Shown one piece after another: positions 1 to 63,722 of a DNA stretch of 64,000 nt. The notes beneath the pieces are model-generated. The model was not told where the DNA came from. It made no database searches and saw only the letters and a program-made list of their open reading frames with translations. This stretch comes from Eledone cirrhosa (lineage: Eukaryota), in contig OZ024743.1 of NCBI GenBank assembly GCA_964016885.1, forward strand, positions 75,578,001-75,642,000. Reading direction: 5' to 3'. Position numbers and translations under genes: made by a program. Within the stretch, counting starts at the first letter, position 1, and every line of letters starts with the position of its first letter.

Positions 1-786
1 CAAAATTCTCTTACCTCTTTCTGTTTAAACTGGCCACTCGTACTTATGTTAAGGTATTGTTCTCAAATAATATCAAAATCTCATAGATTCGATATTATGT
101 GAGATAAAGCCTTTACCATGAAAATATAATAGTAAATATAGAGTAATGCAAATGTTGGGTTAAACCAAGAAACACCACAACATGGCAACTAACTGTTTTC
201 AGGAGAGTGCACTCTGTTGCAAATATTTGGACTAGGCTTCGGGTTTGGGAATATCATTCTCTCTCTTTCTCTCACAATTCTCAAGGCTCTAAAAAGGGCA
301 ATGGACACCACTGTTCTTCTCACCCTGGCTAAACAAAAAAAGTATTTAATAAAAGGACCTGATTGCAGCAGGAGTTGTGAAAAGCAGAAGTAAAGTTCAG
401 GTTTGAAAGTAAGGAAAAGATCAAGTGTATTTGTTACCTAGTAAAGCTAAGCTAAAATCTTCTCAGGAATGTATATATGGTCCAAGGGAGTTATAGGGGC
501 ACCATAGGGTATTTTTTAAAACCTGGCGGAGCCCATCTCCTCTGAATACCAAAGATTTCTTCCAGAGATGGAGAGAGAGAGAGTGTGAGAAAGGAAGTGA
601 GACAGAGATATAGAGGAAGACCCCCCCCCCCCCAGTACTTTACTGGTACTTTTTTTATCAACCTCAGGAATAATACATTCTAATATATAAGAGATGTGAT
701 GTCTCAGAACTGTTCAACTGGGAAAATGTGATACACTTCAGTAGAACATGTCAGTTTTTAGTAGTGATGGCTTAGAAATGTTACTG

Positions 787-1175
787 TTTAACGTCCATTT
801 TTCCACGCTAGCATGGGTTACATGAATTGTTCCATTGTGAGACAAGCCAAATTAGATGACCATGTCTTGTTTATACAGAACTGTTTCTGGCTTGGTTTCT
901 ACAGCTGGATGTCCTTCCTAACCCCAACCACATTTACAGTGTGGGCTGGGTACTTTTTGTTGTGACACCAACACGACCACTTTACAGTGTAAGCTGGGTA
1001 CTTTTTGTTGTGATACCAACATGACCATTTTACAGTGTGGGCTGGGTACTTTTTCTTGACACCAACACGACCACTTTACAGTGTGGGCTGGGTACTTTTT
1101 GTTGTGATACCAACACGACCACTTTACTGCGTGTACTGGGTACTTTTTGTTGTGATACCAACACAACCACTTTAG
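787..1175 (-). mobile_element. SINE-like element (family A, RTE-like 3' tail) with about 5 internal 48-bp tandem units
   Basis: Reverse complement of GTGGTTGGGGTTAGGAAGGACATCCAGCTGTAGAAACC...AACCCATGCTAGCGTGGAAAAATGGACGTTAAA; related copies at 7070-7385, 14240-14455, 54805-55015 and 55215-56390. Confidence 0.75.
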
Positions 1176-1362
1176 AAGCATTTTTAGAATGGTGGTGGCA
1201 TAGGTTTACAAAATCTACAAGATTAGAATTCTATGTCAACTATTCAAATATTAAGATGAAGTTGTGGTTTCTGTAACTTTATGCTCTTTCTAATGTCAAC
1301 CACTTTACAGTGTATACTGGGAGCATTTTATTGTGGCATCAGCACTACATGTATGTGTGCGC

Positions 1363-1370
<8 letters not shown>

Positions 1371-1447
<77 letters not shown>
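1371..1447. repeat. compound (TA)n(GA)n microsatellite
   Basis: Directly visible. Confidence 0.95.
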
Positions 1448-1450
<3 letters not shown>

Positions 1451-1820
1451 AAAATCCCATGGGAGTTTACATCTCTCTATACCCACTCTGCATCTCCCCA
1501 TGCATTGAGTGATCTATCCGGTCTCAACACTGCTATAAACATACATACATATTTGTGCCCCAAAACACACGTACATATACATGTGTGTGTTAAACGGCCG
1601 CTAACACTGGTTATACATACATATATCTGTATCCACACACACACACATATATGTATATATATATGTGCATATTCTCTCATGTTTAGTGACACAAATGCAT
1701 ACATTTTTTTCATATGCATTCACCTATAAGCACATATTTAAATATATGCACGTACATACATGCTGATATATATATATATATATATATATAGTACAAACAA
1801 TGTTTCATACACTCAATATG

Positions 1821-1910
1821 TATATGCGACCATTGGTTTCGGAGTCCAGTTATGGCCACCACGGTATATTGGAGGAGGTTCTTCCAAACTGACCCCTCAT
1901 CCGGCATGCG
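1821..1910 (-). ncRNA. type I hammerhead ribozyme-like motif (core variant CGGAUGA), probably a Penelope-like/retrozyme relic
   Basis: Minus strand reads ATGC-CGGATGA-GGGGTCAGTTTGG...CCATAACTGGACTCC-GAAA-CC-AAT-GG-TC-GCAT. Stem I is ATGC/GCAT, stem II is long, stem III is minimal, and there is a GUC cleavage triplet. Flanked by (TA)n on both sides. Confidence 0.7.
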
Positions 1911-1911
1911 G

Positions 1912-1961
<50 letters not shown>

Positions 1962-3153
1962 GTGTGTGTGTGTATACCTTTGTGTGCTATACAAACCCAC
2001 ACATGTACAAAACAATAATCCTAATAATTTCATCAGGGTAGGTAGGTAAGGTAGGGGTGTGTCGTTATAGTTCTGTATCTTTTACAAGGACAAAGAGAGG
2101 CCCGTGGTGGGATGCGAACACTCGTCCTCTCTATATCTTCCTCAGTATCAATATATTTATATATATTACATATACACTAAGTGTTACTTAGACAGAGTAC
2201 CATATGCTATCTGAAAACATGTTTGCTACATCCGGAAATTCGGAAGATGCTACATAAAATATAAAAGAAATATTAAAGAGAGATATGAGAAAGGGTGGAT
2301 AAAGCGATACAACGAGAGTGGCTTCCTCTGTTTATTTATTAATAAATACCTAATAATTTAACTGATAAATTTATGATAAACATGGTTTCATAGCGGTACT
2401 TAAAAGGTGACATTACTATGGAGATCAACAATCTGTCTCATTTTTGTTATTTCCTGTTTTTAAAAAAAAATATTTTACGTTATAAGACCTTCCTATCTCA
2501 TTTAATATGTATATACACACCCTCAGCAAATATTTTTATAATTCCCCTCGTTTCTGGTTTTATACATATTTATATATATATAAGCCGTTCATCCGTTCAT
2601 CGATGAGCAAACTAAATAAGATTGAAGATTGATTAGTGAATAAATAATTTGCAGTGAGTGACAGAAGCAGCAACTAGAGGGACGGAACTCACAGACTGAG
2701 ACGATAATTATTATAGAAATTAAACAAGATAATGATGATATAATGCTGCTCTTAGACAACCAGAAAACCATTTATAGTCTATATATATTTTTCATAGAAG
2801 CATAAAAAATAAAGCCGTTTGGTTATACAAAATAATTAAATGAGAAAACTCAAGTGTGGTGTTTAAACGAAAGACGGTTTCATTGAATGAAAGGTTTTTG
2901 TAAAAAAGGAAAAAAAAATCTTGTATTCGTTTCTTTTCAGGAAAATAAAGAAATGCTTGCATTAATATAGATAAATATATTTTTATAGAATTTTTGTTGA
3001 ACTTATTAATGCATTCGACAATATTTTAGATATACTTATCTTTTATAAGCTGAGTTGGTATCACTGCTTGGCTAGGTTCAATGTGAAAGCTAGCTGTGTG
3101 CAGACGACAGTTGAGACATATAGCATGCATGGCTATCATTGGCACTCACTTAC

Positions 3154-3807
3154 CTGATATTTAGGTGCATTATTTAACAATGGATAATTTCCTTGACTGT
3201 CACCATTATGTAATAAAAGATTGTCCACGAGATTCCATCCCCAGCTTTGGTCATCGCTACCTAATAAAGAAACATATCCATGACACTGCATGGGAGCTTC
3301 CTTCGTAGCAAGTCCGATCACAGCCACAGTTCCGAGGGGACCTTCCCACCAGACCTCCCAGCAGTGTCGCCCAGTTCTAAACCCGATCTTACCTCGGGCT
3401 CCGTCCGTACTCTGTGCAATAGGGTTCCTATGTAATGTAAATCCATTGTGTTTTACATAAATGTTCCGCGAGCAATCATTGGGGTTCCACGCGTGGTAAA
3501 ATGCTCGTAATTTAGCTTTGTAAGTAGGTACATTTGATAAAACATCCGATTTAAGTGCATCTTCTGCTAATTTTCTCACACAATGAAACCGCCAAACGTC
3601 ATTATTTTCATCATTAAGAAATCTATACCAGCTTTTACAGACTAACGAACAATATCGCAAGTCAGATATGTCTAAATAAGAAAAGACCACTTCGAGTACT
3701 ACTTGAGGTAACCTGGCGGCAGCCATCTTAGTGTAGACGATACGAGTCCATACAATATCTGGATTGGCTTCTGTTTGAATACGGCATGGATCCGGGGAAA
3801 ACTGCAT
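3154..3807 (-). CDS. FBXO45: F-box/SPRY domain-containing protein 1 (FBXO45/Fsn/FSN-1), large coding exon; C-terminal exon not found in window
   Basis: Translation has the F-box [31 protein letters not shown] and the SPRY segment [22 protein letters not shown]...[16 protein letters not shown]...[14 protein letters not shown]...NNAPKYQ, closely matching my recollection of metazoan FBXO45. Similarity stops at a canonical donor CAG|GTAAGT (exon ends 3154). ATG at 3726 (MAAARLP) is the more likely start than ATG at 3807. Confidence 0.96.
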
Positions 3808-4129
3808 ACATATTCAAACCACGATGGTTCAATTCTCCGACATGGATATTATTACAATATTTTTCTTATATATTAGCAACATCTATACAGATCATTAAAG
3901 CTGCCTTCATCTTAAAAATGCGCTATTCATCATTATCATTCTATACAACACTGACGATGCTCACTTTGAGAACGGTGGTGAAAAAGAAAGTAACCTGAAG
4001 CATGAGTCCGCACATCTATTATCCAGGATACGGTGTGTATATGTCTATATGTGTGTGTATATGTGTATATACATATATATAAACATATACAAACATATAT
4101 ATATATAGATGCACACATATATATATGCA

Positions 4130-4260
4130 TCTATTATTTACTCTGTATGTTATATTTTCCGGTGCGTGTTTCTTGTACGTTTTTCGGGAGGCGGTGTGGG
4201 GAAGACAGGAGATTGTGCATGTGCACACGTAAATTACTGCAGAAATATAGTTATTGAAGT
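4130..4260. promoter_or_regulatory. candidate FBXO45 promoter / 5' region
   Basis: Short CpG-containing non-repetitive island between (TA)-rich tracts, a few hundred bp upstream of the FBXO45 start, with an ETS-like CCGGAA on the minus strand. Positional inference only. Confidence 0.25.
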
Positions 4261-4263
4261 GAG

Positions 4264-4724
<461 letters not shown>

Positions 4725-4727
<3 letters not shown>

Positions 4728-4812
4728 TAATAATGAAATTATTGTGTAAAGTGCTCAGGTGCACTACAACTCGTCAAAGGTGCATGTATAGTACATAGAA
4801 TAATACACAAAT
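4725..4812 (-). mobile_element. 3' tail fragment of the CR1/L2-like LINE
   Basis: AATAATAATGAAATTATTGTGTAAAGTGCTCAGGTGCACTACAACTCGTCAAAGGTGCA is the reverse complement of the 3' end at 63640-63720. Confidence 0.85.
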
Positions 4813-4892
4813 TCACAATATATATGCATATGTATCATCATCATCATCTATATATGTATATATGTATGCATATGTATATATATATATATATA

Positions 4893-5069
4893 ACGAAGGA
4901 AATGTGGTAAGGAACCAGGTGGACCATAACGCACCAAAGTACTCAATACTTGAGGTAGTAGAGTGGGTGATAGGAACCAGTAAGACCCCGACAGCTGAGC
5001 TCAAGCCGTTTCGACGGCTAGCCGTCGAAACGGCTTGAGCTCAGCTGTCGGGGTCTTACTGGTTCCTAT
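4893..5069. mobile_element. (TA)n-embedded insertion ending in a 100-bp perfect palindrome (possible Penelope-like pLTR fragment)
   Basis: 4970-5069 is a spacerless inverted repeat centred on GACGGCT|AGCCGTC followed by GAAAC; (TA)n on both sides. Family assignment is inferred. Confidence 0.55.
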
Positions 5070-5765: not shown

Positions 5766-6900
5766 TACTTAGCTTTTGTTGACTTGGAGAAAGCCTTTGA
5801 CAGAGTTCCCCATTCCATTATCTGGTGGGTTCTTAGAAAACGAAGAGTAGATGAATGACTTGTGAGAGCTATACAAGCCATGTATAGAGGAACAGTCAGC
5901 AAGGTGAGAACTAACAATGAATATAGTGAAGAATTTAGCGTACCAGTAGGTGTTCATCAGGGCTCTGTCCTTAGCCTCCTCCTGTTTATTATTGCCCTAC
6001 TGGCTATAACAGAAGAGTTTAAGACTGGTTGCCCCTGGGAACGTCTGTATGCAGACGCTCTGACTCTCATAGCTGAATCTATGGCAAAACTAGAGAAGAA
6101 ATTCCAAACCTGGAAGTATGGCCTAGAATCAAAAGATCTTAAAGTTAACTTGTCAAAGACTAAAGTTCTAGTATGTAGAAAGGAAAACAGAGTCCAGATC
6201 CCCTCTGGGAAATGCCCTTGCTCAGTGTTCAAGAAAGGGGTAGGTAGAAATTCCATCATATGTCCCAAATGCAAGCTATGGGTACATAAAAGATGTAGTG
6301 GGATCACAAGCAGGCTATCAAAGAACATAGGTTTTATATGTGGCCGATGCTCAAGTACAGTAAGTAGCAAGTGGCCACAGGAGTCTTGCTCCTTCAAATG
6401 CCCAGATGGTACTATAGAAATACTCAACTCTTTCCATTTCCTGAGTGATGAAATCAGCAGTGGAGGAGGGTGTTCCGAAAGTATAGCAGCCAGAGTAAGG
6501 ACAGGATGGAGAAAGTTCAGAGAGCTACCACCGCTAGAAGCTACAAAAGGTTTCTCCCTTAAATTGTACGATGCATGTATACGAACAGCAATGCCATATG
6601 GTAGTGAGATCTGGGCACTGTGTGCAGAGGACCTGCGCAGATTGGAAAGAAATGAAGCATGCATGCTCCAATGGATGTGTAATAGTAAAATACATGAACG
6701 GCAAAGCATAAATGAACAGAAAGAGAAATTAGGTATAAGAGGAATCAGATGCAGTATGCTAGAGAGGAGATTGTGTTGGTTTGGCCATATGATGCATATG
6801 AAGGATGACAGCTGTATAAAAAGGTGCAGGACAATCAAAATTGATGAAAGCTATGGAGTAGGAAGACCTGGGATGAGGTGATAAAAGTTGACCTTGTACA
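5766..6900 (+). pseudogene. 5'-truncated RTE-clade LINE ORF2 (reverse transcriptase with internal PHD-like zinc finger), inactivated
   Basis: YLAFVDLEKAFDRVP, VGVHQGSVLS, YADA (degenerate YADD), LKVNLSKTKVL, CPCSV...CPKCKLWVHKRC...CGRC, LYDACIRTAMPYGSEIW, RRLCWFGHM, GRP. In-frame TGA at 5856-5858. Confidence 0.9.
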
Positions 6901-9975: not shown

Positions 9976-10149
9976 ATGTATTGTAAATACAGAACATAAC
10001 CCAATACCACAAGGTATTTTATATGACAGAACCAATTCTGTTATCAACCAAATAGATGGACAATTAATGGACTTGTTTTAACAGACCAGTGTAAATAATT
10101 GAATTTACACACAGCCTATGTTACCATGGAAACACAGTCATTGGTGGCA

Positions 10150-10482
10150 CTGCTGCTGTTGTTGCTGCTGTTGTTGTTGCTGCAGTTGTTGCTGTTGATG
10201 TTGTTGCTGTTGATGTTGTTGCTGTTGTGCAGCTGTTGCTGTTGTTGCTGCTGCAGTTGTTGCTGTTGATGTTGTTGCTGTTGATGTTGTTGCTGTTGTT
10301 GCAGCTGTTGCTGTTGTTGCTGCTCCTGTTGCTGCTGCTGATGTTGTTGCTGATGTTGTTGATGATGATGATGATAATGCTGTTGCTGCTGATGATGTTG
10401 TTTTTCTGGCTGCTGCTGTTGTTGCTGTTGCTACTGTTGTTGCTGCTGTTGTTGCTGCTGCTACTGTTGTTGCTGCTGCTGC

Positions 10483-10517
<35 letters not shown>

Positions 10518-11386
10518 CTGTTGTTACTGTTGTTACTGTTGTTGCTGTTGTTGTTACTATTGTTACTGTTGTTGTTGTTGTTACTGTTGCTACTGCTGCT
10601 ACTGTTGTTGCTGCTGTTGTTGCTGTTGTTGCTGCTGTTGTTGCTGTTGTTACTGTTGTTGTTGTTGTTACTGTCGCTACTGCTGCTACTGTTGTTGCTG
10701 CTGTTGTTGCTGTTGTTGTTGCTGCTGTTGTTGCTGTTGTTGTTGCTGTTGTTGTTACTATTGTTACTGTTGTTGTTGTTACTGTTGCTACTGCTGCTAC
10801 TGTTGTTGCTGCTGTTGTTGCTATTGTTACTGTTGTTGTTGTTGTTACTGTTGCTACTCCTGCTACTGTTGTTGCTGCTGTTGTTGCTGCTGTTGTTACT
10901 ATTGTTACTGTTGTTGTTGTTGTTACTGTTGCTACTGCTGCTACTGTTGTTGCTGCTGTTGTTGCTGTTGTTGTTGCTGTTGTTGTTACTATTGTTACTG
11001 TTGTTGTTGTTGTTGCTGTTGCTACTGCTGCTACTGTTGTTGCTGCTGTTGTTGCTGCTGTTGTTGCTATTGTTACTGTTGTTGTTGTTACTGTTGCTAC
11101 TGCTGCTACTGTTGTTGCTGCTGTTGTTGCTGCTGTTGTTACTGTTGTTACTGTTGTTGTTGTTGTTACTGTTGCTACTGCTGCTACTGTTGTTGCTGCT
11201 GTTGTTGCTGCTGTTGTTACTGTTGTTACTGTTGTTGTTGTTGTTACTGTTGCTACTGTTGTTACTGTTGCTACTGCTGCTACTGCTGTTACTATTGTTA
11301 CTGTTGTTGTTGTTGTTACTGTTGCTACTGCTGCTACTGTTGTTGCTACTGCTGCTACTGCTGTTGCTGCTGCTGTTGTTGCTACT
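10150..11386. repeat. compound (YTR)n trinucleotide microsatellite (CTG/TTG/CTA/TTA) with longer-period substructure
   Basis: Directly visible; gives an artefactual poly-Leu ORF. Confidence 0.95.
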
Positions 11387-11748
11387 GAACCCTATCTACA
11401 GGACATCCACTGTTACCATTCCAAGAGTGACATCAGAGTAGTTACCAATCTGATAGACAATATATTGATTTCTTACATTTGTAAAAGGCTACAGATATAT
11501 ACTAGAGGGGAATGGTTGATTAGAATGACCCCAGTGTATGACTGCTACTTATTTTATTGCCCATAAAGGGATGAAATGTAAATATTGAACCTGATAACAT
11601 GAGATCTCAGAATATTGAGGGCTGGAACTGATTATATGAGAAGTACTTTTAGTCTGATTCATAATTCCTGTTACTTTACCAGAAGGACCCCAGTATATTT
11701 TACTGTTTAGGGCAGAGGGTCTCAAACTGTTTGGGGCTTCCATCCTCT

Positions 11749-56390: not shown

Positions 56391-56582
56391 ACCAGCATAA
56401 AGTTTTCTAAACATGAGGCTGTACCATTGAAACGTGTGTGTGTGTAGGGAAGGATTGATTAGATTCCCCCACCTCCTGCAACAGATCACTTAATAGATAT
56501 TTAGGGGAAGAATTTCATATTTTTTGTCAAAACAAAACTTATAGGGTTTAAACATACAAAATGCCTGGAAGTCAAACATTAC

Positions 56583-57125
56583 ATACCATACTCTGAACGC
56601 CTTGCTTCCCTGGGCATGGATACATTGAAGCTCCGATGCCTGGCAACTGACTTGGTAAACACCCACAAAATTATTAACCATCTTGCCAACAACAACCCTG
56701 AGTATCTTTTTGATTTCCATGTGTCTAACACACGTGGGCATGCCAAGAAAGTCAGAAAGCAGCACAGCTCCCATGACTTTTGGAAACATTTTTTCAAGCT
56801 CAGAGTTGCTGAAGCATGGAACAAACAACCTGCATCAGTTGTTAGCTGAGACACTGCATCCTTTAAAACCTCCATGGAACAAACTACCTGCATCAGTTAT
56901 TAGCTGTCGAGACACTGCATCCTTTAAAACCTCCTGGCTTCCTGAGATTTGCCAACACTACACCTAATATTCCCACTCCATACACATGCACACATGTATA
57001 TCATGACTCATACACTATTCACTTCTCTGACATTTGTATATTATTCTATGTACTAAACATGCACCTTTGATGAGTTGTAGTGCACCTGAGCACTGTACAC
57101 AATAATTTCATTATTATTTATTATA
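56583..57125 (+). mobile_element. CR1/L2-like LINE 3' fragment with two 61-bp units
   Basis: PYSERLASLGMDTLKLRCLATDLVNTHKIINH...HFFKLRVAEAWNK; (ATT)n tail. Confidence 0.9.
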
Positions 57126-62985: not shown

Positions 62986-63057
62986 GCGAAACAAAAGTTT
63001 GGGAGGACCCTCAGTTGTATCAAAGAAATGACATCCTCCCTGAGAACTCGATAGAAT

Positions 63058-63722
63058 GTGAAACTGCACATAGCTATGGTACGGCCACACTTAGAGTTTG
63101 CATCACCAGTCTGGAACCCCTATCTTGTTCAGAACATTGACTGCCTGGAAACTGTTCAGAGACGTGCAACCAAGCGAATACCCTCCATCAGGCATCTACC
63201 ATACTCTGAACGCCTTGCTTCCCTGGGCATGGATACATCGAAGCTCCAACGCCTGGCAACTGACTTGGTAAACACCCACAAGATTATTAACCATCTTGCC
63301 AACAACAACCCTGAGTACCTTTTTGAATTTCATGTGTCTAACACAAAGTCAGAAAACAGCACAGCTCCCATGACTTTCGGAAACATTTTTTCAAGCTCAG
63401 AGTTGCTGAAGCATGGCACAAACTACCTGCATCGGTTGTTAGCTGTCGAGACACTGCATCCTTTAAAACCTCCATGGAACAAACTACCGGCATCTGTTGT
63501 TAGCTGTCGAGACACTGCATCCTTTAAAACCTCCACGCTTCCTGAGATTTGCCAACACTACACCTAATACACACGCACACATGTATTTCATGACTCATAC
63601 ACTATTCACTTCCCTGACATTTATATATTATTTTATGTACTATATATGCACCTTTGATGAGTTGTAGTGCACCTGAGCACTGTACACAATAATTTCATTA
63701 TCATTATTATTATTATTATTAT
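63058..63722 (+). mobile_element. 5'-truncated CR1/L2-group LINE: RT C-terminus (frameshifted), 3' UTR and (ATT)n tail
   Basis: MVRPHLEFASPVWNPYLVQNIDCLETVQRRATKRIP...PYSERLASLG is typical of CR1/L2-group ORF2 C-termini; two 61-bp units; TGCAC...GTGCA stem-loop at 63647-63671. Confidence 0.9.

What the first reader, a model, noticed from the sequence alone, without database searches (positions are those of the whole stretch)
1821..1910. Hammerhead ribozyme fold inside the FBXO45 intron, on the gene's sense strand
Seen: the minus strand reads GCATGC CGGATGA GGGGTCAGTTTGG [loop] CCATAACTGGACTCC GAAA CC AAT GG TC GCAT. All three helices and the GUC site are placed as in a type I hammerhead; the core differs from CUGAUGA by U4>G. 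The roughly 125-bp island is flanked by (TA)n. Established: Penelope-like element pLTRs and retrozymes carry type I hammerheads with a very short stem III that can cleave as dimers. Inference: this is a solo pLTR/retrozyme relic. It lies 3' of the FBXO45 donor on the same strand, so it would be in the pre-mRNA, and the core mutation may reflect selection against self-cleavage or simple decay. The long stem II insert is unusual.
Basis: partly seen in the sequence, partly recalled or inferred. Interest (0 to 1): 0.75.

Follow-up and report, generated by a model that had tools for sequence, protein, structure and literature searches.

The report
Decayed Penelope hammerhead in FBXO45 intron
This is a real hammerhead (self-cutting RNA) motif, but it is a leftover end of a Penelope-type jumping gene with an estimated 1,000 or more copies in this genome, likely too damaged to cut the host RNA; the less ordinary part is that most of the related copies examined carry a non-standard catalytic core and all carry an unusually long stem.

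Summary
The motif is there (core 1903-1897, GAAA 1840-1837, cut site 1828/1827, minus strand), sense to the 19,770-nt intron 1 of an F-box/SPRY (FBXO45-type) gene; a transcript-type contig joins the two exons. It is a 127-bp stump in (TA)n of an old repeat (about 11% divergence, roughly 1,000+ copies). Longer copies carry the same motif behind a reverse transcriptase-endonuclease ORF with Hydra-clade Penelope marks, so it is a pLTR piece, not a retrozyme. The source elements mostly read CCGAUGA; the CUGAUGA copies fit CpG decay. Core damage is the norm (41 of 58), so selection against cutting is not needed, though not directly tested. No second copy lies in the intron to form the dimer that its short stem III likely needs. 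A sister subfamily has an extra A in the core. Cleavage is untested. The scan has reported similar octopus-type Penelope stumps and variant cores on other DNA. Verdict: ordinary locus, mildly unusual family.

The parts
1790..1916 (-). Solo pLTR stump of a Hydra-type Penelope-like element (5' end blurred by TA microhomology at 1916-1920; 3' end at the family's short end, without the ~65-nt tail)
   Evidence: (blastn 1782-1920, 83% to L028)
1904..1907 (-). Stem I, 5' strand (AUGC)
1897..1903 (-). Core 5' half CGGAUGA; G at position 4 (1902), where the subfamily mostly has C
1841..1896 (-). Stem II with long internal module (56 nt; 10-13 predicted pairs with bulges, 28-nt loop)
   Evidence: two registers possible
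1837..1840 (-). Core 3' half GAAA
1829..1837 (-). Stem III, near-palindrome ACCA-A-UGGU (3 bp as monomer, 8 bp plus A.A predicted in a dimer)
   Evidence: same string in Hydra-1_oBim
1827..1828 (-). Predicted cleavage site after GUC
   Evidence: hammerhead numbering (established knowledge); not tested
1824..1827 (-). Stem I, 3' strand (GCAU)
1917..1945 (.). (TA)n tract on the 5' side
1766..1789 (.). (TA)n tract on the 3' side
3154..3726 (-). Coding part of exon 1 of the F-box/SPRY (FBXO45-type) host gene; donor GT at 3153
1..3153 (-). In-window part of intron 1 (19,770 nt; ends at G000:C4:75561384)

Best explanation
The motif is a 127-bp truncated end (pLTR) of an old, multi-copy Penelope-like retrotransposon with Hydra-clade marks, sitting in a TA repeat of the FBXO45-type intron, where it likely decays neutrally and is predicted not to cut the pre-mRNA. 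Shown: repeat family, link to an RT-endonuclease ORF, TA flanks, inverted 5' copies, two 3' ends, sense position in a spliced intron, C as the commonest letter at core position 4. Inferred: the copy was made by target-primed reverse transcription of an RNA not cut at this site, truncated after about 130 nt; the source elements of this subfamily mostly had CCGAUGA, T4 copies arose largely by CpG decay, and G4 is a private later change; in the parent the ribozyme would work weakly, as a dimer and perhaps with protein help.
For: Family: 972 first-look candidates, 40 scored, 82-91% identical; 165 exact hits to a 26-nt 3' pattern against 0 for the reversed control, about 960 copies by extrapolation (a lower-side estimate). 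ORF link: 18 of 30 loci found with a query made of ORF, 3' UTR and motif hold the motif, 13 downstream on the ORF strand, 5 only as an inverted upstream copy. Hydra marks: RWK and DKT (L070), CxCX5C linker (L038, L072), CxxC in the endonuclease (definitions in PMC8557442 section 11); stem III equals that of Hydra-1_oBim. Position 4 in subfamily A (n=58): C39 T14 A4 G1; CG kept 30 of 58 against 25 of 58 at the C11.1-G12 CpG; TG 12 vs CA 6, p=0.24; T 14 vs 11, p=0.65; G5>A 10 of 58 above the 7.6% background, p=0.012; background T>C 2.2% cannot give 39 C. T4 is not clustered on a tree without CpG columns (15 changes, shuffled 17.4, 58 of 500). Only 17 of 58 keep CYGANGA+GAAA+UH. 75 of 92 copies chosen by their 3' end extend more than 10 nt upstream, across the cut site. 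No second copy and no other descriptor hit in the intron. Single changes in the CUGA turn gave low activity in a type III hammerhead (PMC9901934).
Against: Cleavage was not tested. In sister subfamily B (n=37) T4 is in excess (TG 18 vs CA 3, p=0.0015), so U4 source elements existed there, and a minority U4 source cannot be excluded in A: T4 is weakly tied to T at column 34 (11 of 12 vs 20 of 35, p=0.037 uncorrected, 11 tests), and 6 of the window copy's 12 nearest copies have T4, so G4 could derive from T. The tree is built on about 125 columns and has little power. Pfam names no RT or GIY-YIG domain in 11 decayed fragments or in 6 intact homologues; the clade call rests on motifs, tblastn and by-eye comparison with Hydra-1_Obim, not a phylogeny. 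RWK and DKT were seen in L070, a copy with subfamily B letters, not in the window's own subfamily. No compensatory double change was seen in stems I or II. Selection on sense intronic copies was not tested directly.
Confidence: 0.85

Rival explanations
1. The copy arrived active, cut the FBXO45 pre-mRNA, and G4 was fixed by selection to silence it.
For: It is sense in a spliced intron; G4 is the only core change in this copy, which is otherwise less diverged than average (7.6% vs 11.4%); vertebrate retrozymes are depleted in introns (bioRxiv 2026.07.22.740005 section 13).
Against: The subfamily core already departed from consensus (C4 in 39 of 58); one G among 58 is expected by chance (p about 0.6); 41 of 58 copies have core damage; no cis partner for a dimer; single minimal PLE hammerheads showed no cleavage (PMC4209133).
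Confidence: 0.07
2. It is a monomer of a non-coding retrozyme that spreads through circular RNA.
For: Short, non-coding, type I fold; animal retrozymes are proposed to derive from pLTRs (abstract).
Against: No head-to-tail tandem arrays were noticed in the fetched copies (not tested by a dedicated scan); 5' ends scatter from 1 to over 130 nt upstream of the anchor; longer copies run into the PLE 3' UTR and ORF.
Confidence: 0.04
3. The copy keeps a low, regulated cleavage activity (protein-assisted or by pairing of two transcripts) that trims FBXO45 output.
For: All three stems can still form; the U4C variant keeps a viroid infectious despite low activity in vitro (PMC3088659); the Poseidon hammerhead cut only with its protein (PMC11167929).
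Against: No sign of conservation; double-hammerhead fold is 6 kcal/mol above the free dimer MFE; no near-intact or young copy of this family was found to supply the protein (closest copies about 5% from the majority letters; all ORFs seen are broken).
Confidence: 0.04

Closest known systems
Hydra clade of C-terminal-endonuclease Penelope-like elements, including Hydra-1_Obim (Craig et al. 2021, PMC8557442; read: passages, section 11, supplement parts 2 and 52)
   Same: RWK, DKT, CxCX5C linker, CxxC, no cysteines inside the GIY-YIG stretch, under 3 kb, (TA)n targets, hammerhead at the 3' end; stem III ACCA-A-UGGU identical to Hydra-1_oBim.
   Different: Different family: other stems I and II; all 26 Hydra rows of File S2 start CUGA with loop 2 of at most 10 nt, whereas this family has CCGAUGA or CYGAAUGA and 56 nt between the core halves. 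That list came from a descriptor search for canonical motifs, so it could hardly have held such variants.
[quoted passage not shown]
   Same: Short helix I (4-5 bp), long helix II, G10.1-C11.1, a purine after A9 that can be unpaired, palindromic helix III, mostly solo copies, inverted pairs.
   Different: C4 or an added A in the core, and a far longer stem II module, are not described in the parts read; supplements not read.
Natural core variants U4C and A6a (Perreault et al. 2011, PMC3088659; read: section 8, passages)
   Same: Same two departures from consensus; both reported with low activity.
   Different: There rare single cases (U4C in a viroid); here they mark subfamilies of an animal retrotransposon.
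Animal non-LTR retrozymes (bioRxiv 2026.07.22.740005; read: abstract, section 13)
   Same: Type I hammerhead, pLTR kinship.
   Different: No tandem unit seen; the parent here encodes its own protein.

Membership tests
Type I hammerhead ribozyme | Three helices around the core, open end in stem I | tested here: met
   stems I and III are weak in the predicted ensemble
Type I hammerhead ribozyme | Core CUGANGA | tested here: not met
   window CGGAUGA; subfamily position 4 C39 T14 A4 G1 of 58
Type I hammerhead ribozyme | GAAA and NUH | tested here: met
   G12 is a decaying CpG site in other copies
Type I hammerhead ribozyme | Covariation of stems | tested here: inconclusive
   One double change in stem III (ACCU-A-AGGU, 4 of 89 copies plus 2 likely derivatives, probably one event); C/U alternation against G in stem II register B; none seen in stem I
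Type I hammerhead ribozyme | Match to an Rfam hammerhead model | tested here: not met
   window; 6 other copies
Type I hammerhead ribozyme | Self-cleavage | not testable with these tools
   no raw reads offered; needs an in vitro assay
Penelope-like element (EN+) | RT followed by C-terminal GIY-YIG-type endonuclease upstream of the motif | tested here: met
   tblastn of intact homologue P0001 tiles aa 3-691 over loci L046-L075. Pfam gave no name. Absent from the window copy itself
Penelope-like element (EN+) | pLTR repeats and inverted 5'-truncated copies | tested here: met
   inverted upstream copy in L046, L047, L058, L062, L063, L065; direct upstream piece in L070; inverted family words in 33 of 92
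Penelope-like element (EN+) | Optional 3' tail | tested here: met
   44 of 92 with, 48 without, by regular expression; about 65 nt, longer than the 30-40 nt quoted in PMC8557442
Hydra clade | RWK and DKT motifs | tested here: met
   L070:2961-3341; seen in a copy with subfamily B letters only
Hydra clade | CxCX5C linker; CxxC in EN; CCHH absent | tested here: met
   L038 (window's subfamily), L072; CCHH absence read by eye; CxH not seen (decayed end)
Hydra clade | (TA)n insertion, length under 3 kb | tested here: met
   dinucleotide run within 84 nt downstream in 79 of 92 (no background control, and such runs are common here); L070 spans about 2.6 kb
Hydra clade | Canonical hammerhead | tested here: not met
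   variant cores against 26 of 26 CUGA rows; a trait reported for the clade, not the protein definition
Hydra clade | RT phylogeny groups with Hydra families | not tested
   reference proteins lie in a paper supplement and were compared by eye only
Non-LTR retrozyme | Non-coding tandem unit delimited by hammerheads | tested here: not met
   solo copy; parent has an ORF; scattered 5' ends

The most novel reading that the evidence does not exclude
This Hydra-type lineage spread to about a thousand copies with a working but non-canonical hammerhead: CCGAUGA in one subfamily, an added A (CYGAAUGA) in the sister, a 56-nt stem II module and a stem III that pairs only between two molecules (kept by a double change). 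Its cutting would be turned down or made dependent on the element's protein so that uncut RNA serves as template, and CpG decay in dead copies turns some cores back into the textbook sequence.
Probability: 0.3. Interest if true: 0.5.

Novelty: new variant of a known kind. Interest (0 to 1): 0.25.

Why it matters
The locus itself matters little: it is one stump among many. At family level it gives natural core variants (C4, added A) and a long stem II in an element that demonstrably transposed, which bears on the open question of whether Penelope hammerheads need to cut at all. It also warns that textbook CUGAUGA copies in such a genome can be CpG-decay products, and that Rfam and short-loop descriptors miss this family.

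Tried and rejected
Rfam scans: nothing at gathering level in the window, no hammerhead at E<=10 in 1-5000 or at E<=0.5 in 6 other copies; hits were TA-repeat miRNA models. Pfam on 11 decayed ORF pieces and 6 intact homologues, and PDB on one piece, named no RT or endonuclease. Pile-up of 5' ends at the cut site: 12 of 92 fall 4-10 nt from the anchor, but by eye most are fold-backs at the palindrome TTAACATGTTAA; only about 3 start at the site, so no sign of templates cut there. Constrained dimer folding did not take the constraint and was redone by direct evaluation. Expression of the stump: no RNA holder on record; contigs of X19 (469) and X21 (23) lie on the element but are almost all other copies and hardly cover 1902, so neither expression nor the G at 1902 could be checked; X23 and X2 gave no cover, which proves nothing. 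Region-wise divergence among dead copies (core 4-7%, stems 6-13%, loop II 7.5%, tail 9%) mostly reflects C/G content and was not used as evidence of selection. The stem I A-U pair of the window copy (G-C in 40 of 64) is treated as two chance transitions. Rows dropped before counts: 19 of 83 unique hits that did not span the motif; 58 of 92 3'-anchored copies that did not reach the core and 3 duplicates; 41 of 130 that could not be parsed without gaps; 90 loci were held for the 165 pattern hits. Two further copies in subfamily B show G at position 4 but lie at junctions or misalign. Literature: the search 'hammerhead'+'CCGAUGA' gave 1 unrelated paper, 'hammerhead'+'U4C'+'variant' gave 1, 'hammerhead ribozyme'+'octopus' 4 (listings). 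Lunse et al. (PMC5785218) is not held and the supplements of PMC4209133 were not read; either may already list such variants.

Full report
Observation. Stem I is 1907-1904 with 1827-1824 (4 pairs), the core CGGAUGA is 1903-1897, stem II spans 1896-1841, GAAA is 1840-1837, stem III 1837-1829, and the predicted cut lies between 1828 and 1827. A relaxed descriptor finds only this site in 64 kb and none in 30 simulations of 22 kb. Rfam does not see it. Folding is unremarkable (z=0.03); the hammerhead fold lies 3.5 kcal/mol above the MFE.

Host gene. An F-box + SPRY exon lies on the minus strand, single copy. Its donor is at 3153 and the next exon, read from the neighbouring genome stretch, begins 19,770 nt on. 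Contigs of runs X21 and X2 end at 3152 and continue with that exon, so the intron is spliced and the motif is sense in the pre-mRNA.

Family. A search of the own genome gave 972 candidates, 40 scored. A 26-nt pattern from the 3' part has 165 exact hits, which extrapolates to about 960 copies (biased low because the best copies set the rate). Copies differ from the majority letters by 11% on average, this one by 7.6%: an old family. Following L015 upstream led to a broken ORF. Of 30 loci found with that ORF-to-motif stretch, 18 hold the motif, 13 downstream on the ORF strand and 5 only as an inverted upstream copy. Intact homologues of about 700 aa tile the pieces from end to end. RWK, DKT, a CxCX5C linker and an endonuclease without the inner cysteines match the Hydra clade as defined in PMC8557442; that paper lists Hydra-1_Obim from an octopus, whose stem III is the same ACCA-A-UGGU and whose RT resembles these pieces by eye. 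The host is therefore likely an octopus (inference). Pfam named none of the pieces, and no tree with references was built. Insertion marks fit: 79 of 92 copies have a dinucleotide run just downstream, 44 carry a tail and 48 stop short as this copy does, 33 have inverted family sequence upstream.

The core. In 95 copies that span the core, two subfamilies separate (the added A forms nearly one clade, 2 changes against 10.3 shuffled). Subfamily A (the window's, n=58) has C39, T14, A4, G1 at position 4. T>C background is 2.2%, so C was in the source elements. C4-G5 is a CpG and behaves like the CpG at C11.1-G12: kept in 30 and 25 of 58, with raised G5>A; T4 is scattered on the tree. CUGAUGA copies therefore fit decay from CCGAUGA. 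Against this: T4 is weakly linked to one diagnostic site, half of the window copy's 12 nearest copies have T4, and in subfamily B (n=37, mostly CYGAAUGA with a GUA site) T4 exceeds CpG expectation (TG 18, CA 3), so U4 sources existed there. The window's G4 is private; one such change in 58 copies is expected with p about 0.6; 41 of 58 copies have lost some core letter even if C4 is allowed.

Structure. Stem II is supported by folding in two registers; the second leaves the purine after A9 unpaired and tolerates the C/U alternation, as in minimal PLE hammerheads (PMC4209133). Four of 89 copies change both bases next to the centre of stem III (ACCU-A-AGGU), probably one event; those bases can pair only between two molecules, which fits the dimer model. 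No compensatory change was seen in stems I or II.

Mechanism. Shown: repeat origin, ORF link, flanks, position, core counts. Inferred from PLE biology (PMC11167929 passages; PMC6765202 passages): the element's endonuclease nicked the TA tract and reverse transcription began near the RNA 3' end and stopped after about 130 nt. 75 of 92 copies chosen by their 3' end run across the cut site, so templates were mostly uncut there, in line with the report that Poseidon inserts unprocessed RNA. In the intron the stump lacks a partner, its double-hammerhead fold is 6 kcal/mol above the free dimer, and changes in the CUGA turn lower activity (PMC9901934 passages; PMC3088659). It is predicted to be silent, and was probably weak on arrival.

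Novelty. Hammerheads in pLTRs, solo stumps, Hydra elements in octopus, U4C and A6a variants are each known. A subfamily-wide C4 or added A with a 56-nt stem II in a Hydra element was not found in what I read, but Lunse et al. and some supplements were out of reach, and earlier notes of this scan describe similar variant cores in octopus-type genomes (unchecked). Interest 0.25.

Noticed in passing
window 4891-5068: Young fold-back element in (TA)n, with at least 36 copies 94-100% identical (1,312 candidates). A 48-bp perfect hairpin holds only the 3' half of a different hammerhead (GAAA, palindromic stem III, GUC). The centre varies in length between copies and arm changes are mirrored in both arms (L155, L160), as if the 5' arm were recopied at each insertion.
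   Followed up: partly
L070:450-590 (+), L049:140-280 (+): Longer, decayed parent form of that second family, with stem I ACCCC/GGGGU and again a long stem II; often nested beside copies of the finding's family.
   Followed up: partly
L036, about 450-560 nt upstream of the motif: A third Penelope-type family, read by eye: inverted pair of CUGAUGA hammerheads around an ORF start resembling the N-terminus of the Hydra-type homologues.
   Followed up: no
L136, L163, L120, L122, L196: Several insertions of the finding's family fold back exactly at the palindrome TTAACATGTTAA just 3' of the ribozyme.
   Followed up: partly
L112, L128, L141, L180: A few subfamily B copies read CYGAAGA (7-nt core, A at position 7), like Hydra-1_oBim; possibly an older state from which the added-A core arose.
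   Followed up: no
window about 18700-51600: About 33 kb of tandem satellite with 14/28/42-nt periodicity, seen as repetitive open frames.
   Followed up: no
window 10100-11400: About 1.3 kb of (CTG/TTG)-type trinucleotide repeat, open in several frames.
   Followed up: no
window 5859-6881 (+); 56505-56967 and 63055-63567 (+): Decayed non-LTR retrotransposon fragments: an RTE-like RT region, and CR1-like C-terminal pieces (names recalled from motifs).
   Followed up: no
window 4745-4820: Short dispersed repeat in (TA)n also seen upstream in L014; possibly another element end.
   Followed up: no
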